From the NCBI GenBank assembly GCA_028277625.1, contig JANQFW010000040.1, positions 3,036-67,035 of the forward strand: 64,000 nucleotides of DNA. The letters are read 5' to 3'. Under the pieces are notes generated by a model that was not told the DNA's origin, did not search any database, and saw only the letters and a program-made list of their open reading frames with translations. Each line of letters starts with the position of its first letter. Within the stretch, counting starts at the first letter, position 1. The position numbers and the translations under genes were made by a program. Positions 10,982-32,044 of the stretch are shown one piece after another. The stretch comes from Candidatus Gastranaerophilales bacterium (GTDB lineage: Bacteria; Cyanobacteriota; Vampirovibrionia; Gastranaerophilales; JANQFW01).

Positions 10982-12973
10982 TTATTTTGAATAAACTCCT
11001 AACTTAGGAGTATTCTTTTCTTCTGCATACAACGCTTTTAATAAGTCCTTAAACTCTACAACTTTATACAAAAATGCAGTATAGAAAGATTTAGAAGCTG
11101 TACCCATCGCCAGCAAATCATCCATACCGGTATTAGCAGAATCATTTTCAAATATTTTGGTAAACTCGGTTAAATCTTTAAATACGCAACCGGTCAATAA
11201 TAAATTATTATCAAAGAGCTCCTCATGAAATTTAACATAGCTTTCAATTAAAACAGAGGCATTCTCTCGGATACGATCAATATTAAACTCTCTCATGTCC
11301 TGTGCTAAGTCATCTAACAAGCCTTGAGCGCATTCTAGCGCATTTTTAGCCAGCGGCTCAAATGCTTCAATATCTTCTATCATCAGACCTATGTTGCATT
11401 TTATTTCATCATAAGAATCTCTTATAGGGTTTGACTCAACCGAAGAAGATTTGGCCACCTGCGCAGAAACATTCATACTTAACTTGCACATAGATGCCAG
11501 CTTTTCTTCCAGATTTATATTTTCAAACCCGTTAATAACTGCACCCCTCGGAGATGCATTATAAAATTTAATACCCGCATTACTTTTGTCATAGGCAAAT
11601 TGCTCAAAAAACTTTATAAAACTTTCATAATTAACATTAGAAGGTATCAAATCACCATTTTGTCCCTTAACAAAAGTAAGACCATTCATTAATTCTTGGC
11701 GTTTACGAGTAAGTAAAGCTTCTTCTGACAAGACAGAATCATCAGATTTATAATGCTTTAAAAACTTCTCTTTGTCTTCAATTTTTACATAGTACTTGCC
11801 GCCATTTTTTTCTTCTTTTCCTTTTAAAAGCTTCAAGCCGGAATAAGGACTACTTGCTGAATAACACTTACCGTCAGTAAATGCCAGGTCTAAGCCTAAA
11901 TTAATAATAGGGTTGCAACCCATCATATACGCTGAATACATTGCACAGTATGAAACATTTCCTTTGTTTTCATAATCATCAATGGAGAAGTCAGCAATTT
12001 TAGAAAGCCATTTAGCAAAAATGTCGTTATTACTGTAAAAGGCAAATTTATTTTTCCAATTTAATTTAAATACGTTATTGTTTGCAATAGGCTGGGCAAT
12101 AAGATTAATGTCAGAAATATCTAAATCTTTAAGCTGGTTAGTATTATCATAAACCTCAATAAAATTAATAAAATCAGGTTTTATGCCATATTTAGCAAGT
12201 GTTTTATAGGAATTACCAACTGCAATAATTATCACATAGTCCTTATACTTTGCCAAAGCTTGAACAGTCTCGTCCAACGATGGACCAGATGAAACAACAA
12301 CAGCAGGAATATCTTTAAAAGCATTTCTTAGAACATTTATGTCGTTTGACTGTTTAAGGATAGGCAGATTCTTTACACCCTCTCTCACCCACTCATAAGA
12401 CTTTTCAAATAGGCAAAGATAATTAGATTCCAAGTGATTTTTAATTTTTTCAGTTTCTTGCTGCAAATCTTTTACAAATTCAGAATACAAGGTATGGCAC
12501 GAGCCTAAACCGGCAAGGTTTAAAATAGCTTGATATGAATAGACTCCATCTAAAAATTTTATTAACTCTGTTTTAGAGTTTGCAACAAAAACTTTTTCAT
12601 TTGAAAACTCTTGCGAAAAATCAACAACTTCCAGCGTAAACCTGAGAAAGTCTAAGTTTGGCTCATATATTATTATACTGCCTTTAGAGCTTAATGTTAG
12701 CCTTTTAAATAAATACCCTAAACCCAAGCCGATCAAAATAGTTACAGAAGACTCAGAAGAATCTTTTAACTGATTAAAAATATTCATAGCTTCTTTTTGC
12801 GGGTCATTATTATCGTGAATTAAAACCCCTTTATATAAAAGATTAGTATCACCTGACTCTGCTTCAACAAATTCAAAGGTAGCACTGTCGTCAAATACAT
12901 GATTAACTATTTTATCCGCCAAGTTAGGATTATATTTTCTTATTTGTAAAATATTATTTTCAAAAATACTCAT
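10982..12973 (-). CDS. Maf-like (motility-associated-factor type, DUF115/MptE-like) glycosyltransferase family protein
   Basis: 663 aa. The N-terminus is 'IFENNILQIRKYNPNLADKI'. The central 'PAVVVSSGPSLDETV...VIIIAVGNSYKTLAKYGIKPDFINFIE' matches the DUF115 core. Size and layout are typical of Maf proteins. Confidence 0.65.
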   Translation of the reverse strand: MSIFENNILQIRKYNPNLADKIVNHVFDDSATFEFVEAESGDTNLLYKGVLIHDNNDPQKEAMNIFNQLKDSSESSVTILIGLGLGYLFKRLTLSSKGSIIIYEPNLDFLRFTLEVVDFSQEFSNEKVFVANSKTELIKFLDGVYSYQAILNLAGLGSCHTLYSEFVKDLQQETEKIKNHLESNYLCLFEKSYEWVREGVKNLPILKQSNDINVLRNAFKDIPAVVVSSGPSLDETVQALAKYKDYVIIIAVGNSYKTLAKYGIKPDFINFIEVYDNTNQLKDLDISDINLIAQPIANNNVFKLNWKNKFAFYSNNDIFAKWLSKIADFSIDDYENKGNVSYCAMYSAYMMGCNPIINLGLDLAFTDGKCYSASSPYSGLKLLKGKEEKNGGKYYVKIEDKEKFLKHYKSDDSVLSEEALLTRKRQELMNGLTFVKGQNGDLIPSNVNYESFIKFFEQFAYDKSNAGIKFYNASPRGAVINGFENINLEEKLASMCKLSMNVSAQVAKSSSVESNPIRDSYDEIKCNIGLMIEDIEAFEPLAKNALECAQGLLDDLAQDMREFNIDRIRENASVLIESYVKFHEELFDNNLLLTGCVFKDLTEFTKIFENDSANTGMDDLLAMGTASKSFYTAFLYKVVEFKDLLKALYAEEKNTPKLGVYSK

Positions 12974-13164: not shown

Positions 13165-14880
13165 ATGAGAGTTACAGGTATAAACTATAATCAATACAGC
13201 AAGAGCAAGTCCAACAAGAAAAAAGAAAATAGCACAAATAATTTAACTAACAACAATATAACGATTCAAGGCAATGCAATGCTAGGATTAGAGAACGCAA
13301 ATAAGGCAATGTTGAGCTTAAAGAACAAGCTATCTTTCAAGGGAGACATTAAAAATCATGTAGGTGATAACTCATTTCTACAAGGGTTTAAACATAAACG
13401 GCTAAAAAGAGACAATATAACAGCAAACTCTTTATCAATACTATACTGCGATGCAAACGAAATTAAGGTAAAAAGACAAGTAATATTAGCGCATAGTCAT
13501 GCAAAAAAAATTACTGCAAATAAAGTAATCTTAACGGAAGAATCCTCGGCAGATAAAATTAATGCTGAAAAAGTTGTAGTAAAAGACTTCTGTCCAGTCG
13601 AATGGTGCCCTGATGAATTTAGAGAAGAAAGCAGTTATGCAAAAAAAATTGAGGCCGATAAAGTTTTGATATCTAATGGAGCTAGTGCAGATGTAATCAA
13701 TGCCCAAAAGGTCAAGTTAAAAGGCTCTAACTCTGAGGCCACAAATATAAAGTGTGACGAAATAACACTAATTAATAGGCGGCTTCTGGATGAAATTAAG
13801 CGTAAGCAAAAGAAAATTGAAGCTAATAAAGTTATTTTATTGAATTCTGATATTTTTGAAGATATAACGATAACCGAAAAGAACACCCCAAAGCTTGAAA
13901 TAACTGGTGATAGTATAGTTTTAGGAAAAATTATATTTAAAAATGCACCTGGTCTAGTCACCCTCACTCCAAATGAGCGTGGGGTGCATCCTCATATTGA
14001 TAAAAACAATGTTGAAAATGGAAAAGTAGTTATAAAGGGTGAAAGATTAAACATAAACAATAGTCAAAAAGAAAAAATAGATGTACATGAAATTAACGGT
14101 ACAACTTCTATTGGCGTAGAAGGAAATATAGAAGCTAACTTGCTAGATGCACCATTTGTTTCAATGAGGGGCAAATCCAGTACAGACCTAATAAAAGCTC
14201 ATACGATTGAATTATATGGAGATGAGAAAGGAAAAGCCTACGCAAAAGACATAGATGCCAAAGACGTTAGCATATACGGCGGTACAGCAACTAGAATTAA
14301 AGCGGAAGACTCAATAGAATTGTCTGAAGGCTCAATGGTTAAAAAAAATATTACAATGACAGGAAAGGAAAACCCTACAATTGAGCTCATTGGCAAAAAT
14401 ATATCATTAAAAGGCAAGATTTTATTTGACTCTAAAGCTAAAGATGCCCAAGTTATCATACACATGGATGAAAATGGCGACTATACAACTATAGATGAAG
14501 ATAAAGTTCAAAATGGAGTAATCATCTATAACAAAGATATTCAAGGTCTTAATATAAACTTAAAGGGAACTAAAAAAGTAGACAACATTAGCGCATTAAA
14601 TAATGCTGAATTAGCCAACCAAGTTTTTGCTAAAAGAATCACCGCTAAAAACTCTGTTAAGCTATCTGATAGTGCAACAGTCGAAGATGGCATAACAATG
14701 AACGGCAAAAAAAATCCAACGGTTAATATAACCGGCAACGACGTAACTGTTAATGGAAAAGTTGTATTCCCACCAGGTGCTAAAAATGCTCAAGTTGTCA
14801 TACCGCCTGACTATCCTGAGGAGAAAAAACAAGAGCTAAAAAGCAACATTGAGAATGGAAAAGTTGTTGTAAGCAAGTAA
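13165..14880 (+). CDS. BH1: beta-helix-repeat protein of the local six-member family (bactofilin-like repeats), three repeat-plus-cap units
   Basis: The family-type start 'MRVTGINYNQY' at ATG 13165 is preferred over the track start at 13156. It has 'LSFKG', repeats such as 'AKKITANKVILTEESSADKINAEKVVVKD', and cap modules at about 13861-14040, 14344-14535 and 14689-14877 ending 'IENGKVVVSK*'. Confidence 0.8.
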   Translation: MRVTGINYNQYSKSKSNKKKENSTNNLTNNNITIQGNAMLGLENANKAMLSLKNKLSFKGDIKNHVGDNSFLQGFKHKRLKRDNITANSLSILYCDANEIKVKRQVILAHSHAKKITANKVILTEESSADKINAEKVVVKDFCPVEWCPDEFREESSYAKKIEADKVLISNGASADVINAQKVKLKGSNSEATNIKCDEITLINRRLLDEIKRKQKKIEANKVILLNSDIFEDITITEKNTPKLEITGDSIVLGKIIFKNAPGLVTLTPNERGVHPHIDKNNVENGKVVIKGERLNINNSQKEKIDVHEINGTTSIGVEGNIEANLLDAPFVSMRGKSSTDLIKAHTIELYGDEKGKAYAKDIDAKDVSIYGGTATRIKAEDSIELSEGSMVKKNITMTGKENPTIELIGKNISLKGKILFDSKAKDAQVIIHMDENGDYTTIDEDKVQNGVIIYNKDIQGLNINLKGTKKVDNISALNNAELANQVFAKRITAKNSVKLSDSATVEDGITMNGKKNPTVNITGNDVTVNGKVVFPPGAKNAQVVIPPDYPEEKKQELKSNIENGKVVVSK

Positions 14881-19211: not shown

Positions 19212-19381
19212 CTTTTTCTCCTTTTTATATAAAAATAGCCATATTATTCATAATTATCCACTTTATTACAATACAACAAAAATACTTGATTTTAAAATAA
19301 TATTTACGTTTTTTACACTGTTAATTAAAAATAGGGCAAAAGCTGCCCTATTTTAGAGTTAGAATAAAAGTAAAATATTTT

Positions 19382-20242
19382 TTATAAACTTAATAAATAC
19401 TGGCCATAACCGTTTTTAACAAGTGGTTGAGCCAATTTAACAAGCTGTTGCTTATCAATGTAGCCCATATTGTATGCAACTTCTTCAACACATGCCACTT
19501 TGATGCCTTGATTGTTTTCTATAGTTTCAATATAATGAGAAGCTTGCATCAGTGCTTCATGTGTACCTGTGTCGAGCCACGCAAATCCTCTACCTAACAG
19601 TTCTACGTTAAGATCGCCTTCTTGCAAGTAGATATTATTCAAATCAGTAATTTCATACTCGCCACGAGGTGAAGGTTTTAGATTTTTTGCATATTCTACT
19701 ACTTTATTGTCATAAAAGTACAAGCCGGTAACAGCATAGTTAGATTTTGGATTACTAGGCTTTTCCTCGATTGATAAAGCTTTACCAGCTTTGTCAAAGT
19801 CAACCACACCAAAGCGCTCAGGATCTCTTACTGGATAGCCGAATACTGTTGCCCCTTGCGGTCTTTCAATTGAGCGCTGAAGCATATCAGAAAATCCAGG
19901 CCCGTAAAATATATTATCACCCAATACCAATGCAACATTATTGGAGTTCCCTATAAATTCTTCACCAATAACGAACGCTTGCGCTAATCCATCAGGTGAA
20001 GGCTGCACTGCATAGTTGATATTCACACCTAATTCATTGCCACTACCAAGTAACTGTTCAAATCTTGGTGTGTCTTGCGGTGTAGATATAATTAAAATAT
20101 CGCGTATACCTGCTAACATTAATACAGATAATGGATAATAAATCATAGGCTTATCATATATTGGCAATAACTGTTTTGATACAGATTTTGTAATGGGATA
20201 AAGCCTTGTTCCGCTGCCACCCGCTAAGATTATACCCTTCAT
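19382..20242 (-). CDS. rfbA: Glucose-1-phosphate thymidylyltransferase
   Basis: '[18 protein letters not shown]', '[18 protein letters not shown]', 'GLAQAF' and '[11 protein letters not shown]'. The start is taken at the internal ATG 20242, which overlaps the rfbD stop by 4 nt. The track ORF extends to 20305. Confidence 0.92.
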
Positions 20243-21078
20243 TTTGTTATTACCTCTTTTCTCAAACTTAAATAGCCTTCTAATGCTTTTTCCCAGTCCT
20301 GACATAAATTTTCGTTATCCATAATTGAATATCTTGGTCTATTTGCAGGCCTTGGAAAATCTTCTGTGTTACAAGGCAAAAGATTTACATTTATTTTTTC
20401 TAATTCAAATATTTTCTTGGCAAAGCCATACCAGCTAGTGTTGCCAGCCCCACAAGTATGGAAAATACCATACGGCATTTTGCTTTCAATCAAATGTAAA
20501 ACAGCTTTTGCTAAATCAACTGTCCAAGTAGGGCAACCAACCTGATCAGCAACTACTTTTAATTCATCTCTTGTTGTACCAAGCTGAATCATTGTCTCAA
20601 CAAAATTTTTGCCCTGATGCCCATATAGCCAGCTGGTCCTACATATATAATGCTTGTTATTGTGCTTTTTCACAGCAACTTCACCTGCCAACTTAGAATC
20701 TCCATATACATTTATAGGAGCAACTTTATCATCCGGCACATATGGAGAATTCTTAGTACCGTCAAATACATAATCTGTACTTATGTACACAATAGGGATA
20801 GCCTTTTGAGCTGTTGCTATTGCTAAATTTTCAGTACCTGCACCATTTACCAGGAAAGCAGTTTCTTTGTCAGCTTGTGCTCCGTCAACATTTGTATACG
20901 CAGCACAATGTATAACTATATCAGGTTTATCCTCTGATATTTTTGATATTACAGCATTTTTATCTGTAATATCAAGATTATAAATATCTGTTAAAGTTAC
21001 TTCAAATCCTTTTTGTTGGAACAGCTTAGTCATATCACGACCAAGCATGCCATTAGCTCCTGTTAATAGAACCTTCAT
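20239..21078 (-). CDS. rfbD: dTDP-4-dehydrorhamnose reductase
   Basis: '[13 protein letters not shown]', '[11 protein letters not shown]', 'STDYVFDG' and 'YGDSKLAGE'. Confidence 0.88.
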
Positions 21079-22064
21079 TGAATCTGCAGTTCCTTTCTAT
21101 TTTGTATATTGCTCATCCACTTTTTATTATCAAGATACCAATTAATAGTCAATTGTATACCTTGTTCAAAAGTAACAGAAGGCTCCCAGCCTAGCTCATT
21201 TTTCATTTTTGAGCTGTCAATAGCGTATCTGCGATCATGCCCTAATCGGTCTTCAACATATTTTATTAAAGATTCAGGCTTTTTAAGTTCTTTTAATAGT
21301 AATTTTGTTATTTCAATATTGGTTTTTTCATTGTTACCACCAATATTGTATACATCGCCAACTTTACCTTTATGTAAAACAGCATCAATTGCTGAGCAAT
21401 GATCATAAACATATAACCAATCTCTTACATTCAAGCCATCTCCATACACAGGCACTTGCTTATCCTCTAATAAATTATTTATAAATAACGGTAACAATTT
21501 TTCAGGGAACTGATATGGACCATAGTTATTAGAGCATCTTGTTGTTAAAACCGGCATGTTAAATGTTTCATAGTATGCTCTCACTAACATATCAGCTGAT
21601 GCTTTACTTGCTGAGTATGGGCTGTTAGGGGCAAGCGGAGTTGTTTCGGTAAAGTATCCTGTTTTGCCTAATGTACCATACACCTCATCAGTAGAAACCT
21701 GTAAATATCTATGAAGATTAAAGCTCCTTGCTGCTTCTAAAAGGTTTAAAGTTCCTTTTACGTTAGTCTCAACAAATATTTCCGGTCCTGTAATACTTCT
21801 GTCTACATGACTTTCTGCTGCAAAGTTAATACAGCAATCTACCTGCGACATTAAATCCATTACAACTTTTTTATCGCATATGTCACCTTGCACAAAGTTA
21901 TAATTTGGGTTGTTTTCAATATCTTTTAAATTATCTGGATTGCCGGCATAGGTAAGAATATCAAGGTTTATAACTTTATAACCAGGATACTTGTTTAAAA
22001 TATGCCTTACAAAGCAACTACCTATAAATCCTGCTCCACCTGTGACTAATAATTTCATTGTCAT
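21075..22064 (-). CDS. rfbB: dTDP-glucose 4,6-dehydratase
   Basis: 'LLVTGGAGFIGS', 'HFAAESHVDRS'-like 'NFAAESHVDRS', 'STDEVYG' and 'YSASKASADMLV'. Confidence 0.92.
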   Translation of the reverse strand: MTMKLLVTGGAGFIGSCFVRHILNKYPGYKVINLDILTYAGNPDNLKDIENNPNYNFVQGDICDKKVVMDLMSQVDCCINFAAESHVDRSITGPEIFVETNVKGTLNLLEAARSFNLHRYLQVSTDEVYGTLGKTGYFTETTPLAPNSPYSASKASADMLVRAYYETFNMPVLTTRCSNNYGPYQFPEKLLPLFINNLLEDKQVPVYGDGLNVRDWLYVYDHCSAIDAVLHKGKVGDVYNIGGNNEKTNIEITKLLLKELKKPESLIKYVEDRLGHDRRYAIDSSKMKNELGWEPSVTFEQGIQLTINWYLDNKKWMSNIQNRKELQIQ

Positions 22065-22295
22065 TCCTCCGCCTAATATATTACAAGTTACAAATAAATT
22101 TTATTTTATTTAAAATTAAAAAATAATAAAATTAGTAATGTTGTTACTTTAAAAAATTAATCATTTCTTTTGCTATTATCAATCAACATAAATACATTAT
22201 CAATTATTTACCTTGATAAATTTTAAAAAAGTAATAATTTTTTATTTATTTATCAGGTTTATTTTAATACAATAATATTAAAAGAGTTAAATTAT

Positions 22296-23588
22296 TTGCA
22301 AAAAAGAACATTTTTAATGTATTCAAATTTAATAACCAAGCTAAAAAGCAATGAAAATGAATTGGTGTCGAATACTTTTACATTATTAACAGGAGCAGCA
22401 TTTTCTCAAATTGTAATGATATTGTTTGCACCAGTATTATCTAGGATTTATACTCCAGGAGAGTTTGGCATATTTGGTTTTTACTTAGCATTTACATCAA
22501 TCGGCGCAAATATAGCAACATTTAAATATGAACTTGCCTTAGTATTGCCCAAAAGCGATAAACAAGCTGCTAACTTACTATTAATTCCAATAGCTATATC
22601 AATACTTATATTTTTGCTTAGCACATCCATTCTCTTTTATTTTGCAAAAAATTTTAATACAAATAATTTTGTCATATACAATCTTATATTAATAGGCATT
22701 CTAGTAAGCGCAATATTTAATATATTTCAGAGCTGGAATACAAGATATAAATACTACAAAAATCTAGCACTTTCCAGAATGATAAGATCATCAAGCACTG
22801 TAGGTTTTCAATTTTTTTCAAAATTTTTGGGATTTCCTTTAAATGGTTTAATACTAGGACAAATTATAGGATGTGTACTGGGTATCTCTTCTCTCATAAG
22901 CAATACGCTAAAAAAAAGAAAAATTAAATTTATCCAGTTTTCAAGAAAGCTTATATTTTTAAATATAGTTAAATATAAAGATTTTGCCCGATACCAAAGT
23001 CCATCTATGCTCATGAATACAATGTCTCAATACACACCCCTTCTTATGCTTCCAATCTTATTTTCTAATGAAATAGCCGGATTTTATGCCATTACAATGC
23101 GAGTTATGATTCTGCCGGCTAATATGCTTAATCAGGCAATAAGAAGCACTTACTACCAAAAAGCTACAGAGCTATACAATAGCAAAAATAGCATAACTGA
23201 TTTATTTTTGAGTACATTAAAATTCCTTGCAAGGCTATACTTAATACCAGCAGTGATTATTGCGCTGTTTGGCCCATCGATATTTTCTATTGTTTTCGGA
23301 AAAAACTGGGAAATCTCAGGGCGTTATGCGCAGCTGTTAGTATTTTATTTTTTCTTTGGTTCTATTAATGTCCCAGCTGTTATGTCTTCTTATATCCTTG
23401 GGCTACAAAAGCTTAACCTGATTTACGAAATTTTATTACTAATATTCAGATTTTTAAGTATTTATTTAGGTTACTTATTATTTGATAATTCTTTTATATC
23501 CATTTTTTTGTTTTCTATGGTCGGTGCTGTTTTTAATTTTATTTATATTATTATTATATTTTATAAAATAAAAAATATAATAAAGTGA
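22296..23588 (+). CDS. Polysaccharide flippase (Wzx-like, MOP superfamily)
   Basis: About 430 aa, strongly hydrophobic with many predicted TM segments and the usual N-terminal '...LTGAAFSQIVMILFAPVLSRIYTPGEFG'. The start is either TTG 22296 or ATG 22317. Confidence 0.7.
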   Translation: MQKRTFLMYSNLITKLKSNENELVSNTFTLLTGAAFSQIVMILFAPVLSRIYTPGEFGIFGFYLAFTSIGANIATFKYELALVLPKSDKQAANLLLIPIAISILIFLLSTSILFYFAKNFNTNNFVIYNLILIGILVSAIFNIFQSWNTRYKYYKNLALSRMIRSSSTVGFQFFSKFLGFPLNGLILGQIIGCVLGISSLISNTLKKRKIKFIQFSRKLIFLNIVKYKDFARYQSPSMLMNTMSQYTPLLMLPILFSNEIAGFYAITMRVMILPANMLNQAIRSTYYQKATELYNSKNSITDLFLSTLKFLARLYLIPAVIIALFGPSIFSIVFGKNWEISGRYAQLLVFYFFFGSINVPAVMSSYILGLQKLNLIYEILLLIFRFLSIYLGYLLFDNSFISIFLFSMVGAVFNFIYIIIIFYKIKNIIK

Positions 23589-24835
23589 AGAAAAAACAAA
23601 TGAAAAGGCTAATTAGTGGGGCTTATAAAAAATTATACCTACCAGATGACCATAACAAATATAATATTGATAAAATCTTAGACTATGCATTTAATAATGT
23701 TGAATATTATAAACAGTTCAAAGGCTGCAAATTATCAGAAATACCCATATTAACAAAAGACATAATTAGAGATAGCTATAATGAATTACTCTGCGATGAG
23801 ATTAATAAAAGAAAAACTTATATAAACACTTCTGGTGGTACAACTGGCGAACCTGTCAGGCTTGTGCAGGATCAAAACTACAGAAATAATTTTAGATTAA
23901 CTACTTACAGGCAAAAACAAGAAATCGGTTATAGCTTTGCAGAGCCTATGATAAAAATCTGGGGAAGCGAAAGAGATATATTAAAAGGCTCAATAGGCTA
24001 CAGGGCAAAGCTTTTTAATTACTTAAAAAATTGCCATTTTCTTAATTCTTTTTATTTATCAGAAGGAATTATAAAAAATCATATTAAAATAATAAATAAA
24101 ATAAAACCCAGGCTAATAGTGGGCTATGTGCACTCTATGCATGAAATTTCGCAGTATATAAATAAAAATAATATAAACATTGCACCAGTGCCAGTAATTA
24201 TGTGTACAGCTGGGACTTTGTATAGTTTTATGGAAAATGAAATATCAAAAGCTTTTAAAGCTAAGGTAATAAATCGCTACGGTAGCCGAGAAGTCGGCAA
24301 TATAGCCTGCTCTACATTTCAGCATAATGATTTAAAAGTTGCTCAAAATCATGTATATATCGAAATTGTTGACAACCAAGGAAATCTTTGTCCAGAAAAT
24401 ACTGAAGGTAATATAGCCATCACGTTATTATCCAATTATTCGATGCCACTGATTAGATATAAAATCGGAGATAGGGGAGTGCTTAATTTAACAAACTTTG
24501 GCTATCCTGTCTTAACAAAACTAAGTGGTAGAGAGAATGAATTTCTACGCTGCGCATCAGGTAAAATGGTTGATGGGGAATTTATTACACATATGTTTTA
24601 TTTTAAAAATTGGGTGCAAAAGTTTCAGGTGATACAAAATGACCTTGTAAGTCTTGATGTAAATGTATTGTGTAACTATCAGCCTACACTAAAAGAGGTC
24701 ATTACTTTAGAGCAAGAGCTAAAAAATGTTATGGGACTTAGTTTTACGATTAATTTTAACTTTGTTGACGAAGTTAAGCCGCAAAGCTCAGGTAAGTTTT
24801 CTTATGTTATCTGTAATATAAACAACCTCACCTAG
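23585..24835 (+). CDS. CapK/PaaK-like adenylate-forming enzyme (phenylacetate-CoA ligase family)
   Basis: It has the 'TSGGTTGEPV' AMP-binding loop and is 416 aa. The GTG start overlaps the upstream stop (GTGA), which suggests translational coupling with the flippase gene. Confidence 0.7.
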   Translation: MKKKQMKRLISGAYKKLYLPDDHNKYNIDKILDYAFNNVEYYKQFKGCKLSEIPILTKDIIRDSYNELLCDEINKRKTYINTSGGTTGEPVRLVQDQNYRNNFRLTTYRQKQEIGYSFAEPMIKIWGSERDILKGSIGYRAKLFNYLKNCHFLNSFYLSEGIIKNHIKIINKIKPRLIVGYVHSMHEISQYINKNNINIAPVPVIMCTAGTLYSFMENEISKAFKAKVINRYGSREVGNIACSTFQHNDLKVAQNHVYIEIVDNQGNLCPENTEGNIAITLLSNYSMPLIRYKIGDRGVLNLTNFGYPVLTKLSGRENEFLRCASGKMVDGEFITHMFYFKNWVQKFQVIQNDLVSLDVNVLCNYQPTLKEVITLEQELKNVMGLSFTINFNFVDEVKPQSSGKFSYVICNINNLT

Positions 24836-24993
24836 AATCTGCTTGCCTATTCCTAGTTTATTTTATTAAGTTTAACACGATTTAATAATCTGAAAAATAT
24901 TTTAGAGACAACATAAAAAACTACAGAGAAGAGTTTGTGTTATATTTTTTTACAATATAATCTATTATTTAAATTTAATTAAAGAGAGAGAGT

Positions 24994-26898
24994 ATGCAAA
25001 TTATAGGAATTGGCAACAAGCTGAATAAAAATAAATTTAATACAAATAATAATCCATCCCTATCTTTCAAGGGTAGTAATTCAAGTAAAATGAACAGTTT
25101 AAATAGTGATACATTAACACTAAACCGAAAAAGCAATGTATCTTTTAACAGCAAATCTCTATTAGAAAATATGTTCATAAGAGACAAAATTGTAAGGAAA
25201 GGTAGACATAAATTAGGCTTGTTAGAAGCAAAAACCTTGGTTTCAATAACAAATTGTACAGCTAAAAACATCAGCTCAGGTGGATCAGTCGAATTATTGG
25301 ACAAATCCAAGTGTAAAGAGGAAATCAATGCAAAAAAAGAAGTTAAGCTAGACGGGAAAAGTTCTGCTGGTAAAATTCAGACCGATGGGTCAGTGGAATT
25401 ATTGAATGAGTCCAGTTGTGATTTGGTCAATGCCAAAAAAGATGTTAAGTTAGACGGAAAAAGTACTGCTGATAAAATTCACTCTGATGGTTCAGTAAAG
25501 TTATTGAATGGATCCACATGTCAGGATAAAATCAATGCAAAAACCGTATTATTGAGTAAATCCAAAGGTGAAGACATCAAGGCAAGTAAAGTTGAATTGC
25601 TGAACAACTCAGAATGTGATGACATTAAGGCTAATAACGTAAAATTAGAGGGACTTTCTTGCGCTGGAAGCATTCAATCTAGTGGCTTAGTAGAGTTATT
25701 GAAGAGATCTAATTGTGAAGATATCAAAGCAAAAGAAGTTAAATTAACTGAAAAAAGCTTTGTTATCAAAAACATTGAAACGGATAAATCTGTAATATTG
25801 TTTGATAATACAACAGTTGGAAAAAATGTCATTATAAAAGGATTAGAAAGCCCTGAAGTCTCAATAACAGGTAACGTAAATGTGGGTGGAAAAATTAAAT
25901 TTTTAAAAAACGCAAACGGAAAAGTCAGGCTCTATGGCAATAAATCTATGGACTATCCTGATATCGACGAAAGCAAAGTAACAAATGGAAAAATTGTCTA
26001 TGACGTTGATGACATGAAACTTGATGGCAAAGCAAAGACTGATATACATGCAAAGTCCGCCACATTAACAAATAGTAAAGCCAAAAACCTTTTTGCTGCT
26101 AAAAATGTTACCTTGCAGGACTATTCATACGTAGAAAGCTTAATTAAGGCAAAAAACGTTAAACTAGATAACAGTTCTAAAGCTAAAGATATTAAGGCCA
26201 AAGAGTCCGTAATCCTTAATAATTCAAGGGTACTTGGCAAAATCGAAGCAAAATCTGCCAAGTTAACAAATAGTAAAGCTGAAAAGATTAACGCAACTAA
26301 GGCTGCAAACTTGGACAACAACTCCCATGTCGTAAACTCAATAACTGCCCAAAAAGTTAAACTGGATAATAACTCTAAAGCTAAAAATATTAACGCTAAA
26401 GAGTCAGTAAGCCTGCTTAATAGCTCATCTGTTCTAGGTAAAGTTGAAGCAAAAACTGTAAAGATAGATGGAAAAGATACTTATGCTCACAAAATTGTGG
26501 CAAAAGGTGATATTGCAAAAGTAGAACTAAACAATAATGCACAAGCTTCTGAAATTAAATGCGAAAAAGATGTTTATTTAAGAAAAGGCAGCAAGGCTGA
26601 CCAAGTTTTCATTGGTAGGTCTATAACGTTAACTGATGATACAGAAGTTACTGAAATAATAGGTGAAGGTGAGCCAACAATTAAAATAAATGACAAAGCA
26701 ACTGTCTGTGATATTGTATTAAAAAATACATCCAAGGTTAAAGTGGACCTCTCACCTGAAAGTATAAAGGGTATTATTCAATTTGAGTCTACTTCTTCCG
26801 AAAATAGAGTTTTTGTACCCCACAACATGCCAAAATCTCAAATAGAAAAACTAAAAGCTAAAGTTCAAAATGGTAAAATTGAAAGGTTAGCAGAATAA
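24994..26898 (+). CDS. BH2: beta-helix-repeat family protein, two repeat-plus-cap units
   Basis: 'MQIIGIGNK...LSFKG', repeats 'EDIKASKVELLNNSECDDIKANNVKLEGLSCA', an internal cap at about 25827-26005, and a C-terminal cap ending 'VQNGKIERLAE*'. The RBS is 'aaagagagagagt'. Confidence 0.85.
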   Translation: MQIIGIGNKLNKNKFNTNNNPSLSFKGSNSSKMNSLNSDTLTLNRKSNVSFNSKSLLENMFIRDKIVRKGRHKLGLLEAKTLVSITNCTAKNISSGGSVELLDKSKCKEEINAKKEVKLDGKSSAGKIQTDGSVELLNESSCDLVNAKKDVKLDGKSTADKIHSDGSVKLLNGSTCQDKINAKTVLLSKSKGEDIKASKVELLNNSECDDIKANNVKLEGLSCAGSIQSSGLVELLKRSNCEDIKAKEVKLTEKSFVIKNIETDKSVILFDNTTVGKNVIIKGLESPEVSITGNVNVGGKIKFLKNANGKVRLYGNKSMDYPDIDESKVTNGKIVYDVDDMKLDGKAKTDIHAKSATLTNSKAKNLFAAKNVTLQDYSYVESLIKAKNVKLDNSSKAKDIKAKESVILNNSRVLGKIEAKSAKLTNSKAEKINATKAANLDNNSHVVNSITAQKVKLDNNSKAKNINAKESVSLLNSSSVLGKVEAKTVKIDGKDTYAHKIVAKGDIAKVELNNNAQASEIKCEKDVYLRKGSKADQVFIGRSITLTDDTEVTEIIGEGEPTIKINDKATVCDIVLKNTSKVKVDLSPESIKGIIQFESTSSENRVFVPHNMPKSQIEKLKAKVQNGKIERLAE

Positions 26899-26947
26899 TA
26901 TTACTCGATGTTTTAAGATAATATCAGTAAAAAGAAAGAGAAAAAAT

Positions 26948-27868
26948 ATGCGCATTACAGGCATTGGCTACAGTCAGTATAAAAAAAATAATAATCCAAA
27001 TAGCGTAAGCACACAAAAATCAAATAATCTAAACCGTTTTGCAAAAATGAACACTGCAAATCAAGACCAATTAACATTAAGTCAGAAAAAAAGTAGTGTA
27101 TCCTTTAAAGGTATAGAGATGTCTAAGTTTAGTGAGGATATAAAACAAAATACTGATGTAAATCTAATAAATGAAAGAAAATCTAATATAAAAGCTCCTT
27201 CTGTTACAATGACAAATAGCGAAGCAAACGATATTAAAGCTGAAACATATGTTAAAATGGTTAAAAGTCGTGCAAATAATATTAATGCCGGCGAATCAGT
27301 AAAACTATCTAATAACTCTAGCGCAAAAAAAATTGTAGCCTCAATGGTTGAGTTAACTGGAAAAATTCCTGAAAAGGAAAGTGAAGAAAACTCAAATGGT
27401 TTGATAAAAGCATATAGGCGTGCAACACCCAAAATCGATATCAAACAACAGATAGCGAACATGACTGGTGTCGAAAGAATTGAAGCTGAAAATAATGTAA
27501 AGCTATCAAACAATTCAGTGGCAGGAGTAATTATAGCTAACACAGTAGAATTATTAAATAAATCTAGGGCTACTGATATTACAGCTAAAACTAGCGTTTC
27601 AATAACTAATGCAAATGCTACTGATGTCAAGGCGGGAAAAGTAGACTTATATAATAATGCAAAGGTTTCAAATATAACAATAACAGGGGACAAAGAAACT
27701 AATAAATCCCCTCAAGTTGCTATGCATGATAATGATGTAAATATTAATGCGAGTATAAAATTTTTAAAAAAGAATCCTGGTAGAGTTTATGTGCCTTCAG
27801 GTATGCCGGAATATAAGCAGCAAGAACTAAGGGATAAAATTATTAATGGCGAACTTGAAGTAATGTAA
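26948..27868 (+). CDS. BH3: beta-helix-repeat family protein, single unit
   Basis: 'MRITGIGYSQYKK...VSFKG', repeats 'NDIKAETYVKMVKSRANNINAGESVKLSNNSSA', and the cap 'ITITGDKETNKSPQVAMHDNDVNINASIKFLKKNPGRVYVPSGMPEYKQQELRDKIINGELEVM*'. Confidence 0.85.
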   Translation: MRITGIGYSQYKKNNNPNSVSTQKSNNLNRFAKMNTANQDQLTLSQKKSSVSFKGIEMSKFSEDIKQNTDVNLINERKSNIKAPSVTMTNSEANDIKAETYVKMVKSRANNINAGESVKLSNNSSAKKIVASMVELTGKIPEKESEENSNGLIKAYRRATPKIDIKQQIANMTGVERIEAENNVKLSNNSVAGVIIANTVELLNKSRATDITAKTSVSITNANATDVKAGKVDLYNNAKVSNITITGDKETNKSPQVAMHDNDVNINASIKFLKKNPGRVYVPSGMPEYKQQELRDKIINGELEVM

Positions 27869-27974
27869 ATTTAATGGGCGCAAATTTACCATTTATTATA
27901 ACAATATTTATTTTAGTTTTAATATTGTTTATGATATTAATTTAGTATAATTATAAAAATAAGGTAAGGTAAAT

Positions 27975-30239
27975 ATGCAAATCTCAAGAATCGGCTATAA
28001 TAACTACAAAAAAACTAGTGCTAACAACAAAGAAAGCAATAAAAAGACAAACTTAGAGAACCTATCCTCATCCAAAGAGATTGCCTTTAATACCAAAGGT
28101 CTATTGGGATTAGGTTCTTTAAATAGAGCTATAGTAAACTTAAGTAATTCTAAGAATAACATCTCATTTAAAGGTACATTCGTAAATAATAGCGAAGAGC
28201 TGCAAAAGATAGATGCAGACAAGATAGGAAGTGAAAACGAGGATATAAAAATAGATGATCATATAAGCGTAAAAAACATAATAGGAGGATATGTTGAAAT
28301 AACAGGCAAGGAGAATAACTTTGCTCAATCAGGTAATATAACAGCCCAAGGCTGTGTGAACTTAACCTATGCTAACTCTGGGAATATTAAATCAGAAAAA
28401 GGTAAAGTAAACATAACAGGTAACAGGCATAACCTTGCCCAAGTAGGCAATATAACAACCCCAAAAAATGTAGATTTAAGCTATGCTCTATCCAAGGATA
28501 TTAAATCTGAAGGTAGGGTCATTTTAACAGACAATAGCACAGCAAATAATATTAATGCAAAAAATGTAACTTTAGCTTATGGGAGTACAGCTGGCAATAT
28601 TGATGCACAAAATAAGGCTTATATATACAAGTCTACTGCCAAAGATATTAGTGCAAAATGTGTAACTTTGGCTAATAAAAGCCATATTAACTCTGTTAAA
28701 GCAGAGAACTATGTAGAAATACTAGATGACAAAAATATTGTCAATGCCAATATAACATTAACCGATAGCGAAAACCCAAGAGTTATTATAGAAGACAAGG
28801 ACGTAAACATTGATGGAAACATTATATTTCCTGAGTACTCTAATGGAAAATTGTTTACTCCTCTTGACTATCCAAAAGACAAGCTATCGGAATTAAATGG
28901 TAAAATTAAAAATGGAGAAATTGAGGCAGGATTAATAAACAATTCAGATCTATTAAAAACAATAGACAGTAATATAGATCAAAAGTATGACATAAACCTG
29001 GAAGGTAATATAAAAGCTCAAGATATAAATGGTAAATCTGTTAATATAAATGGTATTCTTCTTCCCCTTACCATATACAACGATGTATACCAGATTAATT
29101 ATTTAATGCCTTACCCTTGTACGGTAGGTAATATAACTGCCAGTAATGACATTTATTTAGCTATGGCTAAATCTGAAGATATTGAATCAAAAAAAGGTTG
29201 TGTAACTATAGAAGGTTTTAAAGCAAAAAATGACGATCCTAATGCAATTCAAGACAGCATCGAAGTCAAGTCCAAGTCTGGTGATATAACAGCCCAAAAA
29301 GATATTGTAGTGCAACATGCTACTGTAGGTAACATTAAATCAACAGATGGAATTGTAACTTTAAAAAGTCCAAAGAATGAGACAAAAGCTCAAAACGTAG
29401 AAGGTAAAGAGATAGTTATACAAGGGTCTCCAGAATATAGAGTTAGTGTAGGTGACATCACTGCAAAAAATAAGGTTGATTTAGCTAGGACTATATCTGG
29501 GGATATTAGATCAGAACAAGGCAGCGTAACAATAGATGGTTTTGAGTCCACAGCCAAGTCTGGTGATATAACTGCAAAAAATAATATTACAGTGCAAAAT
29601 GCGACTGTAGGGAAGATTAAGTCAATAGATGGAGATGTAACTTTAAAAAGTCAAATAAATAGTGCAAAAGCTAACAATGTAGAGGGAAGAAATGTAATCA
29701 TAAATGGAAACCCTCAACATGCAATTAGTACAGCTAATGTAAAAGCTGAAAATAAAGTTGAATTGAATAATACCAATGCAGATATTGTTAAAGGAGAAAA
29801 AGTGCTTCTCTCAGGTCATAGCAAAGTAAATGCTATCTTTGCTAACAACATAGTCAATGTAACTTCTGGCTCTACTGTAACTGATACAGTAAAGGCTCCT
29901 GAAATTTCTATTGATAGTGATTCTAGCGTAAACTCTATTATAGCTAAAAACAAAGTAGAATTATCAGAAAGTGCCAATATTACTGGCAATATAGAATTAA
30001 ACGACAATAAAAAACCGGTAGTTATTATAAATAGTAATGACGTTAATATTCGCGGAAATATTATATTTTCAGAGGAAAAAGATACCTCTAAAAGCAAATG
30101 TTTCCCTAGTTTAAAGTCACCTAAAGGCACAGTTTATATACCTAAAGATTATCCTAAGGATAAAAAACAAAAACTAAAAGCCAAAATAAAAAATGGAAAA
30201 ATAAAAACTTTAAAAGCAAATGTAGGGAAGATAGAGTAA
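27975..30239 (+). CDS. BH4: beta-helix-repeat family protein, largest member (754 aa), two units
   Basis: 'MQISRIGYNNYKK...ISFKG', an internal cap at about 28749-28930, and the C-terminal cap '...GTVYIPKDYPKDKKQKLKAKIKNGKIKTL'. Confidence 0.85.
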   Translation: MQISRIGYNNYKKTSANNKESNKKTNLENLSSSKEIAFNTKGLLGLGSLNRAIVNLSNSKNNISFKGTFVNNSEELQKIDADKIGSENEDIKIDDHISVKNIIGGYVEITGKENNFAQSGNITAQGCVNLTYANSGNIKSEKGKVNITGNRHNLAQVGNITTPKNVDLSYALSKDIKSEGRVILTDNSTANNINAKNVTLAYGSTAGNIDAQNKAYIYKSTAKDISAKCVTLANKSHINSVKAENYVEILDDKNIVNANITLTDSENPRVIIEDKDVNIDGNIIFPEYSNGKLFTPLDYPKDKLSELNGKIKNGEIEAGLINNSDLLKTIDSNIDQKYDINLEGNIKAQDINGKSVNINGILLPLTIYNDVYQINYLMPYPCTVGNITASNDIYLAMAKSEDIESKKGCVTIEGFKAKNDDPNAIQDSIEVKSKSGDITAQKDIVVQHATVGNIKSTDGIVTLKSPKNETKAQNVEGKEIVIQGSPEYRVSVGDITAKNKVDLARTISGDIRSEQGSVTIDGFESTAKSGDITAKNNITVQNATVGKIKSIDGDVTLKSQINSAKANNVEGRNVIINGNPQHAISTANVKAENKVELNNTNADIVKGEKVLLSGHSKVNAIFANNIVNVTSGSTVTDTVKAPEISIDSDSSVNSIIAKNKVELSESANITGNIELNDNKKPVVIINSNDVNIRGNIIFSEEKDTSKSKCFPSLKSPKGTVYIPKDYPKDKKQKLKAKIKNGKIKTLKANVGKIE

Positions 30240-30241
30240 AT

Positions 30242-31114: not shown

Positions 31115-31233
31115 CATAATAAAACTTACTCGAACACTAGCAATTATTTTTTTTAGGTGTTTTAAAGCTTTCAACTTGTTAATTAAAAAGTAACATCATA
31201 GTTTAGTTTTCAAAAAGAAAGTAAGGAATAAGT

Positions 31234-31911: not shown

Positions 31912-32044
31912 TAAAGAAATATTACAAAAATAATATTTTAGCTTTTTATTCATGAAATAAATTTTAAAATCTGTTAAAATATATAATAAATATATAAACA
32001 TTAAGTAATTATATATTTTAATTAAATTGAATAAAGGCTGAAAC

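What the first reader, a model, noticed from the sequence alone, without database searches (positions are those of the whole stretch)
13165..13350. Conserved N-terminal cassette (M-[RQ]-I-x-[GR]-I-G ... F-K-G) on all six BH proteins, with no classical signal peptide
**Seen**, the six N-termini:
- BH1: 'MRVTGINYNQYSK...ITIQG...LSFKG'
- BH2: 'MQIIGIGNKLNKNKFNTNNNPSLSFKG...VSFNS'
- BH3: 'MRITGIGYSQYKKNNN...VSFKG'
- BH4: 'MQISRIGYNNYKK...IAFNTKG...ISFKG'
- BH5: 'MQILRIGYSSYKR...AAFKG'
- BH6: 'MRIAGIGINPFKK...PPFKG...IAFG'

The linker between the two motifs varies from about 15 to 50 residues and is N/K/S/T-rich. The two anchor motifs are kept even though the repeat bodies diverge.

**Inference:**
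- The cassette behaves like a targeting, processing or docking signal. It could be a non-classical export leader cleaved after F-K-G, a membrane- or partner-binding peptide, or a polymerisation handle.
- Bactofilins are known to carry short unstructured N-terminal tails implicated in membrane binding, which is one possible analogy.
- The first residues (M-R/Q-I) vaguely recall flagellin-type N-termini, but that resemblance is only 3-4 residues and weak.
Basis: partly seen in the sequence, partly recalled or inferred. Interest (0 to 1): 0.65.

Follow-up and report, generated by a model that had tools for sequence, protein, structure and literature searches.

The report
Shared N-terminal tag on variable beta-helix proteins
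Six fast-evolving beta-helix proteins of an uncultured gut-type bacterium (Gastranaerophilales) all begin with the same short, floppy, positively charged tag, which also sits on unrelated small proteins in a sister genome and so probably works as an address label, though its destination is still unknown.

Summary
All six genes start with M-[RQ]-[IV]-x-x-I-[GN]..[YF]-K-K, then an N/K-rich spacer, then a phi-x-F-K-G box. None has a signal-peptide hydrophobic core.

- **Conservation:** the first 13 residues are about 55% identical between paralogs, against 29% for the bodies. Half of the identical residues use different codons, so the peptide is what is selected.
- **Structure:** AlphaFold2 leaves the tag disordered in front of a confident beta-helix.
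- **Rarity:** an exhaustive HMMER search found 33 relatives in 1.84 billion proteins. The closer ones carry the tag.
- **Sister genome (GCA_028280605.1):** neighbouring genes are 85-95% identical. The BH1 ortholog is 26% identical in its body and 47% in its tail.
- **Modularity:** in that genome the tag also heads three small proteins with no beta-helix.
- **Known signals:** it fits none tested (Sec, Tat, prepilin, double-glycine, bactofilin MFSKKKK).

Best reading: a bipartite, protein-read sorting tag. Export by a Sec-independent route is the favoured destination (about 0.4). A cytoplasmic membrane or partner tether is a close rival (about 0.3). Function is inferred, not shown.

The parts
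13165..13350 (+). BH1 N-terminal tag (residues 1-62). M1 is MRVTGINYNQYSK (13165-13203), the first box is ITIQG (13261-13275), then ANKAM, and the second box is LSFKG (13330-13344).
   Evidence: Nucleotide homology to the sister genome runs from maf into codon 49 and then breaks.
13165..14880 (+). BH1 gene (571 aa from 13165; an alternative ATG lies at 13156). It has three beta-helix modules and is transcribed divergently from maf.
   Evidence: Its positional ortholog P0007 is 26% identical in the body and 47% in the tail.
24994..25152 (+). BH2 tag. M1 is MQIIGIGNKLNKN, the first box is LSFKG (25060-25074), then SDTLTL, and the second box is VSFNS (25138-25152).
24994..26898 (+). BH2 gene (634 aa).
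   Evidence: Pfam Bactofilin whole-protein score is 42.4 bits, above the cut-off of 27.9, but no single stretch is significant.
26948..27112 (+). BH3 tag. M1 is MRITGIGYSQYKK, the first box is degenerate (RFAKM), then DQLTLS, and the second box is VSFKG (27098-27112).
   Evidence: AlphaFold2 gives pLDDT below 50 for residues 1-58.
26948..27868 (+). BH3 gene (306 aa, one module).
   Evidence: The AlphaFold2 body is a beta-helix with 183 residues at pLDDT 90 or more. Foldseek found no significant PDB match.
27975..28175 (+). BH4 tag. M1 is MQISRIGYNNYKK, the first box is IAFNTKG, and the second box is ISFKG (28161-28175).
   Evidence: The 5' end is 81% identical in DNA to that of BH5.
27975..30239 (+). 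BH4 gene (754 aa).
   Evidence: Pfam Bactofilin whole-protein score is 37.7 bits, with no single significant stretch.
30242..30340 (+). BH5 tag. M1 is MQILRIGYSSYKR and the box is AAFKG (30326-30340).
30242..31114 (+). BH5 gene (290 aa).
31234..31386 (+). BH6 tag. M1 is MRIAGIGINPFKK, the first box is PPFKG (31309-31323), then RDTLTLS, and the second box is IAFGA (31372-31386).
   Evidence: AlphaFold2 gives pLDDT below 50 for residues 1-46, and IAFGA forms the first strand.
31234..31911 (+). BH6 gene (225 aa).
48760..48858 (+). Possible extra instance of the F-box. The N-terminus of a 233-aa membrane protein reads ...KAKKNNVAFKGQ (box at 48841-48855). This resembles KQNNVAFNG of the 97-aa tagged protein in L082.
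   Evidence: A chance match is not excluded, because the box alone also occurs in ordinary proteins.
54253..54297 (+). Possible extra instance. The N-terminus MNVGSVKNTAVKFQG belongs to a 129-aa protein with one C-terminal membrane segment.
   Evidence: This is weak and could be chance.
10982..12973 (-). maf (motility accessory factor, flagellin-type glycosyltransferase). It is divergent from BH1, and the adjacency is kept in the sister genome.
   Evidence: Pfam MptE-like 114.7 bits and Maf_flag10_N 37 bits. Synteny is shown in L207.
19212..37300 (.). An 18-kb variable island. It carries rfbA/D/B, a Wzx-type flippase, an adenylate-forming enzyme, BH2-BH6, a P-type ATPase and a Ser-rich protein. 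It is absent between the L25 gene and dapB in the sister genome.
   Evidence: Gene order compared with L207. Pfam assignments.

Best explanation
The first 25-45 residues form a bipartite sorting tag that is read as a peptide by a protein partner.

**Anatomy**
- Part 1 sits at the extreme N-terminus, including the retained Met: M-x-[IV]-x-x-[IM]-G...[YF]-[KR]-K.
- Part 2 is a phi-[SA]-F-K-G box whose Phe lies 22-44 residues from Met1.
- The two parts are joined by a disordered, acid-free spacer rich in N, K, Q, S and T.
- The tag marks a hypervariable family of beta-helix proteins for one common destination. In a sister genome it also marks small unrelated proteins.

**Destination**
- I think the most likely destination is export from the cytoplasm by a Sec-independent route.
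- The flagellar type III apparatus is the only known machine that reads an N-terminal two-part signal of this geometry: hydrophobic residues at the tip, a spacer of at least 19 residues, then a Phe-containing docking motif.

**Shown**
- The motif exists and is conserved at the amino-acid level.
- It is modular.
- It is predicted to be disordered and is basic.
- It has no Sec-type hydrophobic core.
- The bodies are hypervariable and lie in the accessory genome.

**Inferred**
- A protein reads the tag.
- The proteins leave the cytoplasm.
- Which machine is involved.

I put about 0.7 on 'peptide-level targeting or docking tag' in general, and about 0.4 on export specifically.
For: - **Peptide-level selection:** residues 1-13 are 50-58% identical between paralogs, against 29% for the bodies. 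40 of 82 identical residue pairs use different codons.
- **Kept across genomes:** the P0007 tail is 47% identical to the BH1 tail (E = 5.5e-16), while the bodies are 26% identical. Flanking genes are 85-95% identical.
- **Modular:** in L082 the tag heads four tandem genes. Two of them (110 and 97 aa) share nothing with BH proteins beyond the first 20-34 residues. A further 100-aa protein in L207 starts MKIINNTNIRNQSKTKQTKFDFKG.
- **Sequence-specific, not compositional:** there is no helical or strand amphipathic periodicity beyond shuffled controls. This favours recognition by a protein rather than by lipid.
- **Disordered:** pLDDT is below 50 for residues 1-58 of BH3 and 1-46 of BH6, in front of confident beta-helices.
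- **Basic, with no hydrophobic core:** the first 30 residues carry 4-6 basic and 0-2 acidic residues. The Kyte-Doolittle maximum is 1.07 or less, against 1.8-2.8 for real signal peptides of the same lineage.
- **Traits typical of exposed or exported families:**
  - Tandem paralogs lie in an 18-kb island with surface-glycan genes.
  - BH1 lies beside maf in both genomes.
  - The relatives P0008 and P0010 lie beside two TPS-domain exoproteins.
  - All relatives are singletons in 15 billion proteins, and some sit next to a transposase or an integrase.
- **Geometry matches early flagellar subunits:** in Salmonella FlgD the hydrophobic signal 2-SIAV-5 and the docking motif 36-FLTLL-40 need a spacer of at least 19 residues, with 24 optimal (PMC8983047). 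Here the spacer from residue 6 to the Phe of the first clear F-box is 19-38 residues; that range leaves out BH1 and P0010, whose first boxes (ITIQG, LELKG) have no Phe.
Against: - No export machine, chaperone or protease gene is shared between the six loci examined.
- The flagellar docking motif is F-x-x-x-hydrophobic. Counting from the Phe of the clearest F-K-G box, only BH1 and BH4 have a hydrophobic residue at +4.
- Type III signals are usually not conserved in sequence.
- Whether this organism has flagella is not shown. The only hints are maf and a chemoreceptor gene.
- BH2 and BH4 pass the Pfam Bactofilin whole-protein cut-off, and known bactofilins are cytoplasmic.
- The remote relatives P0011 and P0014 end in a membrane segment preceded by basic residues. 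This suggests a cytoplasmic beta-helix part.
- If the F-boxes of the two membrane proteins in the window are genuine, they would face the cytoplasm.
- The second F-box may be structural, because it forms the first strand in the BH6 model.
Confidence: 0.4

Rival explanations
1. Cytoplasmic tether. The BH proteins are bactofilin-like scaffolds that stay inside the cell. The basic, aromatic N-terminal tail holds them, and the small tagged proteins, on the inner face of the membrane or on a shared cytoplasmic partner. Many weak tails arrayed on a polymer would give avidity, as shown for BacA.
For: - BH2 and BH4 score 42.4 and 37.7 bits against Pfam Bactofilin, above the cut-off of 27.9.
- Bactofilins carry short unstructured N-terminal membrane-targeting tails in which Met1, a hydrophobic residue and lysines matter (PMC12448750).
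- The first 30 residues of the tail carry 4-6 basic and 0-2 acidic residues. Met1 is probably retained because residue 2 is large.
- The tail is disordered.
- The remote relatives P0011 and P0014 have C-terminal membrane anchors, with basic residues on the N-terminal side.
Against: - The tag does not match the MFSKKKK consensus. Residue 2 is R, Q, N or K, and the lysines sit at positions 12-13 (PMC12448750).
- There is no amphipathic periodicity.
- The order of residues is conserved, not just the composition.
- Foldseek finds no solved bactofilin among its matches.
- A scaffold that is 26% identical between genomes whose neighbouring genes are 85-95% identical is unusual for a cytoskeletal protein.
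- Membrane proteins would not need a membrane-binding tail.
Confidence: 0.3
2. Structural or assembly element. Part of the cassette (D-T-L-T-L-S plus the second F-box) is the N-terminal cap of the beta-helix. The extreme N-terminus is a handle that adds a strand to a neighbouring subunit, giving polymerisation or hetero-oligomerisation among paralogs. The small tagged proteins would act as caps or competitors.
For: - In the BH6 model the second box IAFGA forms the first beta-strand.
- The second box always lies 5-15 residues before the first confident strand.
- Several paralogs are co-encoded in tandem.
Against: - M1 and the first box are predicted disordered in both models. Monomer models cannot show docking, so this is weak evidence.
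- The small proteins carry M1 and the first box, but lack both the D-T-L element and a beta-helix.
- Interior modules of multi-module proteins have no such cap.
Confidence: 0.12
3. Nucleic-acid-level feature. The conserved 5' end is kept as a recombination anchor for swapping variable bodies, or as part of an mRNA regulatory element. The peptide itself has no role.
For: - Nucleotide homology between the two genomes runs from maf through the intergenic region into codon 49 of BH1, and then stops abruptly.
- The 5' ends of BH4 and BH5, including the ribosome-binding site, are 81% identical in DNA.
- The bodies behave like replaceable cassettes.
Against: - About half of the identical residues are encoded by different codons.
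- DNA identity within the tag between the orthologs, judged by eye from the alignment, is roughly 60-65%, with short peaks at the motif codons. That is too low for efficient homologous recombination.
- The same peptide motifs recur in L082 with a different spacing and different codons.
Confidence: 0.05
4. No present function. The similarity is inherited from a common ancestor and decays more slowly than the body, because a disordered N/K-rich tail in an AT-rich genome has little sequence space to explore.
For: - The genome is about 32% G+C and its proteins are rich in N and K.
- The linker itself is not conserved.
Against: - Disordered tails normally diverge faster than folded bodies. Here the reverse holds: 47% against 26% between orthologs, and 55% against 29% between paralogs.
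- Specific non-N/K residues are the ones kept: M, I, I/M, G, Y/F and F-K-G.
- The tag occurs on unrelated bodies.
Confidence: 0.08

Closest known systems
Bactofilin N-terminal membrane-targeting sequence (BacA MFSKQAKS; global consensus MFSKKKK; PMC12448750)
   Same: - Both are short peptides at the very N-terminus of a disordered tail in front of a beta-helix.
- Both combine hydrophobic and basic residues and include Met1.
- The paper notes lineage-specific variants.
   Different: - The sequence differs: M-[RQN]-I-x-x-[IM]-G...Y-K-K plus an F-K-G box.
- The tag is much longer and has two parts.
- It also occurs on proteins with no beta-helix.
- The bodies are only weakly bactofilin-like and are hypervariable.
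- Membrane binding is untested.
Bipartite export signal of early flagellar (rod and hook) subunits: N-terminal hydrophobic signal plus gate-recognition motif (PMC8983047)
   Same: [quoted passage not shown]
- Both have a polar, unstructured spacer of at least 19 residues.
- Both then have a Phe-containing motif at about residue 25-40.
- Neither has a Sec signal.
- BH1 lies beside the flagellin-glycosylation gene maf.
   Different: - The flagellar motif is F-x-x-x-hydrophobic. Here the box is phi-x-F-K-G, with a hydrophobic residue at +4 in only two of six.
- The tag is conserved in sequence, which is unusual for type III signals.
- The bodies are beta-helices, not flagellar axial proteins.
- Export is untested.
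N-terminal marker motifs of polymorphic secreted proteins, such as MIX and prePAAR of type VI effectors, LXG of type VII toxins, and RxLR/PEXEL host-targeting motifs (named from my own knowledge, not tested here)
   Same: Both combine a conserved N-terminal marker with a rapidly diversifying body, in paralog families that sit in accessory islands.
   Different: There is no sequence similarity to any of them. No matching secretion genes were seen in the loci examined.
Two-partner-secretion (TPS-domain) beta-helix exoproteins, which neighbour the relatives in L082
   Same: Both are long beta-helix repeat proteins rich in N, G, S and K. The top Foldseek hit for BH3, which was not significant, was the HxuA TPS domain.
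   Different: TPS proteins have a classical signal peptide and a PF05860 domain. The BH proteins have neither.

Membership tests
Bactofilin (Pfam PF04519) | Significant match to the bactofilin (DUF583) domain model | tested here: inconclusive
   BH2 (42.4 bits) and BH4 (37.7 bits) exceed the whole-protein cut-off of 27.9, but no single stretch is significant. BH1, BH3 and BH6 have no hit, and BH5 scores only 13.7 bits.
Bactofilin (Pfam PF04519) | Fold superposes on solved bactofilin beta-helices | tested here: not met
   Foldseek of the BH3 and BH6 models against the PDB gave no match at E of 0.001 or better. No bactofilin appears among the 50 matches listed for either search. A profile search of PDB sequences found nothing relevant.
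Bactofilin membrane-targeting sequence | N-terminal consensus M-F-S-K-K-K-K: hydrophobic residue at position 2, lysines near positions 4 and 7 | tested here: not met
   Residue 2 is R, Q, N, K or S. The hydrophobic residues are at positions 3 and 6, and the lysines at 12-13 (consensus from PMC12448750).
Bactofilin membrane-targeting sequence | Binds membranes and is needed for polymer localisation | not testable with these tools
   This needs liposome co-sedimentation or localisation of tag-deleted proteins.
Sec (type I/II) signal peptide | Basic n-region followed by a hydrophobic h-region of 7-15 residues and a cleavage site | tested here: not met
   The Kyte-Doolittle 15-residue maximum in the first 75 residues is 1.07 or less for all six. 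It is 1.8-2.8 for six real signal peptides of the same lineage.
Tat signal peptide | Twin-arginine motif followed by a hydrophobic region | tested here: not met
   There is no RR pair and no hydrophobic region in any tail.
Type IV prepilin leader | G followed by F/M, a hydrophobic helix of about 20 residues and Glu at +5 | tested here: not met
   The residues after F-K-G are polar and variable (D, S, I, T, S, A), with no hydrophobic stretch.
Double-glycine (peptidase C39) leader | G-G, G-A or G-S at positions -2/-1, with the L-x-x-x-E-L-x-x-I pattern upstream | tested here: not met
   Position -2 is K, N or Q, and Phe is at -3. There is no E-L pattern. No peptidase-ABC transporter gene lies in the loci.
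Flagellar type III early-substrate signal | Small hydrophobic residues at the extreme N-terminus | tested here: met
   I or V at position 3 and I or M at position 6 in all six BH proteins and in the four tagged proteins of L082.
Flagellar type III early-substrate signal | Gate-recognition motif F-x-x-x-hydrophobic at about residue 30-40 | tested here: not met
   A clear F-containing box is present at residues 25-38 in BH2 to BH6 (BH1's first box, ITIQG, has none). Counting from the Phe of the clearest F-K-G box, only BH1 and BH4 have a hydrophobic residue at +4 (motif from PMC8983047).
Flagellar type III early-substrate signal | Spacer of at least 19 residues between the two signals | tested here: met
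   The spacer from residue 6 to the first clear box Phe is 19-38 residues across the instances that have a clear Phe-containing first box; BH1 and P0010 do not.
Flagellar type III early-substrate signal | Export depends on the flagellar apparatus | not testable with these tools
   Flagellar genes of this genome could not be surveyed. Only maf and a chemoreceptor gene lie in the window.

The most novel reading that the evidence does not exclude
The tag is the address label of an undescribed Sec-independent sorting route in Melainabacteria (Gastranaerophilales). One version is that the flagellar type III apparatus has been co-opted to export a hypervariable set of beta-helix surface proteins, possibly glycosylated by Maf, together with small companion proteins. 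The other is that a wholly new machine reads a conserved M-x-I-x-x-I-G ... F-K-G signal.
Probability: 0.25. Interest if true: 0.85.

Novelty: new variant of a known kind. Interest (0 to 1): 0.55.

Why it matters
Melainabacteria are the non-photosynthetic sisters of cyanobacteria and common gut inhabitants. None of this order has been grown in pure culture (my own knowledge), and almost nothing is known of how they build or vary their surface.

A short, conserved, portable N-terminal label would help in three ways:
- It would give a simple sequence handle for listing a whole class of co-targeted proteins in these genomes.
- It would point to the machine that reads it.
- It would give a testable case of a sequence-conserved, non-Sec N-terminal signal.

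If instead it proves to be a membrane tether, it would extend the known range of bactofilin-type tails to a motif unlike the published consensus.

Tried and rejected
**Searches that led nowhere**
- A word-index homology search with BH3 found only BH3 itself.
- The same search with the six-tail alignment found nothing.
- With a 13-sequence alignment it returned only P0008, P0010 and BH5.
- A scan of GTDB species genomes with the tag pattern gave 234 pattern matches, and none encoded a relative.
Three were FliS-like N-termini. This says nothing about true abundance.
- NCBIfam, PHROGs, plasmid tblastn and PDB sequence searches gave nothing.
- Foldseek gave only generic, non-significant beta-helix hits.
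- Looking up window proteins to extend the contig gave only short Logan contigs.

**Ideas tested and dropped**
- *An amphipathic helix or strand in motif 1.* The hydrophobic moment is no higher than in shuffled sequences.
- *The small tagged ORFs in L082 are decayed BH genes.* tblastn shows similarity only over the first 20-34 residues.
- *phi-x-F-K-G alone is diagnostic.* It also occurs in ordinary proteins such as Asd. The two extra window proteins therefore remain only possible instances.
- *The HD-GYP protein at 16038 carries a tag.* Its N-terminus is not conserved in the ortholog.

**Leads from memory, not pursued with tools**
- Encapsulin cargo peptides end in G-S-L-K-G. I set this aside because the ORFs read in the window include no recognisable shell gene and the proteins are large.
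- The Prp/L27 cleavage motif has a different sequence.
Full report
**1. What is there**

The window is about 32% G+C. Its aspartate-semialdehyde dehydrogenase is 64-73% identical to those of Gastranaerophilales MAGs and at most 58% identical to anything else. The organism is therefore an unnamed member of Gastranaerophilales (Melainabacteria/Vampirovibrionia).

Six genes encode the 'BH' proteins, all on the + strand:

| Gene | Coordinates |
|---|---|
| BH1 | 13165-14880 |
| BH2 | 24994-26898 |
| BH3 | 26948-27868 |
| BH4 | 27975-30239 |
| BH5 | 30242-31114 |
| BH6 | 31234-31911 |

- Each has a purine-rich ribosome-binding site in front of the M-[RQ]-I start.
- BH1 also has an in-frame ATG nine bases upstream. 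The family consensus favours the start at 13165.

**2.

All six start M-[RQ]-[IV]-x-[GR]-I-[GN]-x-x-x-[YFN]-[KS]-[KRN]. All six carry a phi-x-F-K-G box within the first 67 residues.

Alignment shows four elements:
- M1, at residues 1-13.
- A first F-box. It is clean in BH2, BH5 and BH6, degenerate in BH3 (RFAKM), ITIQG in BH1 and IAFNTKG in BH4.
- An 'N-x-D-T-L-T-L-S' element.
- A second F-box next to the start of the beta-helix. BH5 has no clean second box.

Evidence that this is more than chance:
  - It matched only these six genes and three of the four tandem tagged genes of locus L082.
  - The fourth, the 110-aa gene, matched M1 only, because its box reads V-S-F-A-R-K-G.
  - About 494 kb of control loci gave six M1-only hits and none with both motifs.
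- Residues 1-13 are 50-58% identical between paralogs. The linker and the bodies are about 29% identical.
- Of 82 identical residue pairs in positions 2-13, 40 are encoded by different codons. Selection therefore acts on the peptide.
- One exception is BH4 and BH5, whose 5' ends are 81% identical in DNA, including the ribosome-binding site. This suggests a recent duplication or conversion.

There is no signal peptide. The most hydrophobic 15-residue window in the first 75 residues scores 1.07 or less. Six real signal peptides of the same lineage score 1.8-2.8. In the first 30 residues the tails carry 4-6 basic and 0-2 acidic residues.

**3. The bodies**

- AlphaFold2 models of BH3 and BH6 give confident beta-helices, with pLDDT above 90 over most of the body. 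Each ends in a short helix-strand cap.
- Residues 1-58 of BH3 and 1-46 of BH6 have pLDDT below 50. In BH6 the second box (IAFGA) forms the first strand.
- Foldseek against the PDB finds only weak, generic beta-helix hits, and no bactofilin.
- Pfam Bactofilin is passed at the whole-protein level by BH2 and BH4 only, without any single significant stretch.
- 'Bactofilin-like' is therefore a resemblance, not an established membership.

**4. Distribution**

An exhaustive HMMER search with a BH5/BH3/BH6 profile found only 33 proteins at E of 0.001 or better among 1.84 billion representatives. Six of them are the window's own. Ten of the relatives were looked up and all are singleton clusters.

The closer relatives keep the tag:
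- P0007: MKIFDIGISYNRNK...ITFKA...NKAMINF...IAFKG
- P0008: MNIRLMGNLGLYKK...MTFKG...QDTVSL
- P0010: MSIYLMKNLNLYRK...LELKG...FAFRG
- P0017: MRLPEIANYGQYGK...VAFKG
- P0015 and P0030: D-T-F/D-C-F ... SFKG/SFKA

**5. A sister genome gives the most telling comparison**

Locus L207 is a contig of GCA_028280605.1. It is collinear with window 7.6-19.2 kb and 37.3-40.1 kb.

- Flanking proteins are 76-95% identical: Asd 94.7%, DapB 91.5%, Maf 87.4% and the 274-aa neighbour 87.5%.
- BH1 and its positional ortholog P0007 are about 26% identical overall.
- Their tails are 47% identical (E = 5.5e-16). The body of P0007 is no closer to BH1 than to BH2.
- Nucleotide homology runs from maf through the intergenic region into codon 49 of BH1, and resumes only at 15034.
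- The whole stretch 19.2-37.3 kb is absent between the L25 gene and dapB in L207. It carries the rfb genes, a flippase, an adenylate-forming enzyme, BH2-BH6, an ATPase and a Ser-rich protein.

The family is therefore hypervariable and belongs to the accessory genome. The tag is its best-kept part.

**6. The tag is modular**

On another contig of the same sister genome (L082), four tandem genes start with the tag:
- a 110-aa protein: MMIRSMGNLNPYKK...GVSFARKG
- P0008
- P0010
- a 97-aa protein: MNIRLMGNLNPYKKMNAQKQNNVAFNG

The two small proteins match BH proteins only over the first 20-34 residues. They show no remnant of a beta-helix body and no Pfam family.

L207 encodes a further 100-aa protein that starts MKIINNTNIRNQSKTKQTKFDFKG.

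Two window proteins with membrane segments have an N-terminal F-box in a similar context:
- 48760-49461: KKNNVAFKGQ
- 54253-54642: MNVGSVKNTAVKFQG

The five-residue box alone also occurs in ordinary proteins such as Asd. These two therefore remain only possible instances.

**7. What it is not**

| Known signal | Result |
|---|---|
| Sec, Tat, prepilin, double-glycine leaders | Defining features are absent |
| Bactofilin membrane-targeting consensus MFSKKKK (PMC12448750) | Not matched |
| Amphipathic helix or strand in M1 | No periodicity beyond shuffled controls |
| Conserved partner gene | None shared among six loci |

**8. How it most likely works**

The following are shown:
- A portable peptide locked to the extreme N-terminus.
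- Conservation of residue order, not just composition.
- Disorder and a basic charge.
- A second short motif at a roughly fixed distance.
- Attachment to a fast-diversifying accessory family and to small unrelated proteins.

This is the design of a sorting or docking tag read by a protein. I put about 0.7 on that general statement. The destination is inferred.

*Export by a Sec-independent route (about 0.4).*
- The bodies are hypervariable, and paralogs are expanded inside a surface-glycan island.
- The BH1-maf adjacency is kept in both genomes, and the relatives P0008 and P0010 lie beside TPS-domain exoproteins.
- The geometry equals that of early flagellar type III substrates. Salmonella FlgD has a hydrophobic tip, a spacer of at least 19 residues (24 optimal) and a Phe motif near residue 36 (PMC8983047). 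Here the Phe of the first clear F-box lies 19-38 residues after residue 6. BH1 and P0010 are left out of that range, because their first boxes (ITIQG, LELKG) have no Phe.

*A cytoplasmic membrane or partner tether in the manner of bactofilins (about 0.3).*
- There is a weak Pfam match to Bactofilin.
- The tail is basic.
- Remote relatives have C-terminal membrane anchors, which imply a cytoplasmic beta-helix part.

*Lesser rivals.*
- An N-cap or polymerisation handle (0.12). It is supported mainly for the second box.
- A DNA-level recombination anchor (0.05). Synonymous variation argues against it.
- Mere inheritance without function (0.08). The tail being better kept than the fold argues against it.

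**9. Novelty and verdict**

- No library or paper searched describes this motif.
- It is best filed as a new variant of a known kind: a conserved N-terminal targeting tail on beta-helix proteins.
- There is a real but unproven chance that it marks a new export route.
Its function remains inferred, and the organism is uncultured, which limits immediate testability.

Noticed in passing
window 6810-7055 and 32375-32615 (+): A direct repeat of about 240 nt, more than 90% identical over this core by eye (84% over the 300 nt scored), lies in two intergenic-like places. The second copy is just downstream of BH6. The repeat ends in a GC-rich hairpin followed by a T-run, like a terminator. The upstream 400 nt of the two copies is only about 55% alike by eye and carries weak ORFs (6460-6954 and 32045-32515). 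There is no Rfam match. It could be a small RNA, a 3' UTR element or the end of a mobile element.
   Followed up: partly
window 19212-37300: This 18-kb segment is absent between the L25 gene and dapB in the syntenic contig of GCA_028280605.1. It carries rfbA/D/B, a Wzx-type flippase, an adenylate-forming enzyme, BH2-BH6, a P-type ATPase and a Ser-rich protein. It is therefore a strain-variable surface-related island.
   Followed up: partly
window 13312-15033 versus L207 5835-7276: There is an abrupt loss of nucleotide homology inside BH1 (after codon 49) between two genomes that are otherwise about 80% identical in DNA in the two flanking blocks compared. This is a hypervariable or replaced gene body with conserved flanks.
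   Followed up: yes
window 25251-25543, 26050-26421 and 29272-29764: BH2 and BH4 contain internal direct repeats of 86-211 nt that are 71-73% identical. These are recent duplications of beta-helix rungs or modules, so module number is changing.
   Followed up: no
L082 3950-9032 (-): Two tandem TPS-domain (PF05860) proteins of about 800-850 aa, with extended classical signal peptides, lie next to the tagged genes of the sister genome. No TpsB partner lies within the 13 kb read.
   Followed up: no
window 35546-37057 (+): A 503-aa protein has an N-terminal membrane segment and long Ser/Ala low-complexity runs, at the edge of the island. It has no Pfam family.
   Followed up: no
window 16038-16868 (+) versus L207 8417-9217: The HD-GYP protein is only 55% identical between the two genomes, and its first 12 or so residues are entirely different. 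Its neighbours are 85-88% identical.
   Followed up: no
window 58611-59417 (-): A 268-aa protein looks by eye as if it has annexin-like repeats. This was not tested with any tool.
   Followed up: no
L103, L187, L206 (metagenome contigs): Three proteins that by eye look like the flagellar chaperone FliS start MxINTIGYQAYKK (not tested with any tool). They matched the degenerate DNA pattern for motif 1, most probably by coincidence.
   Followed up: no
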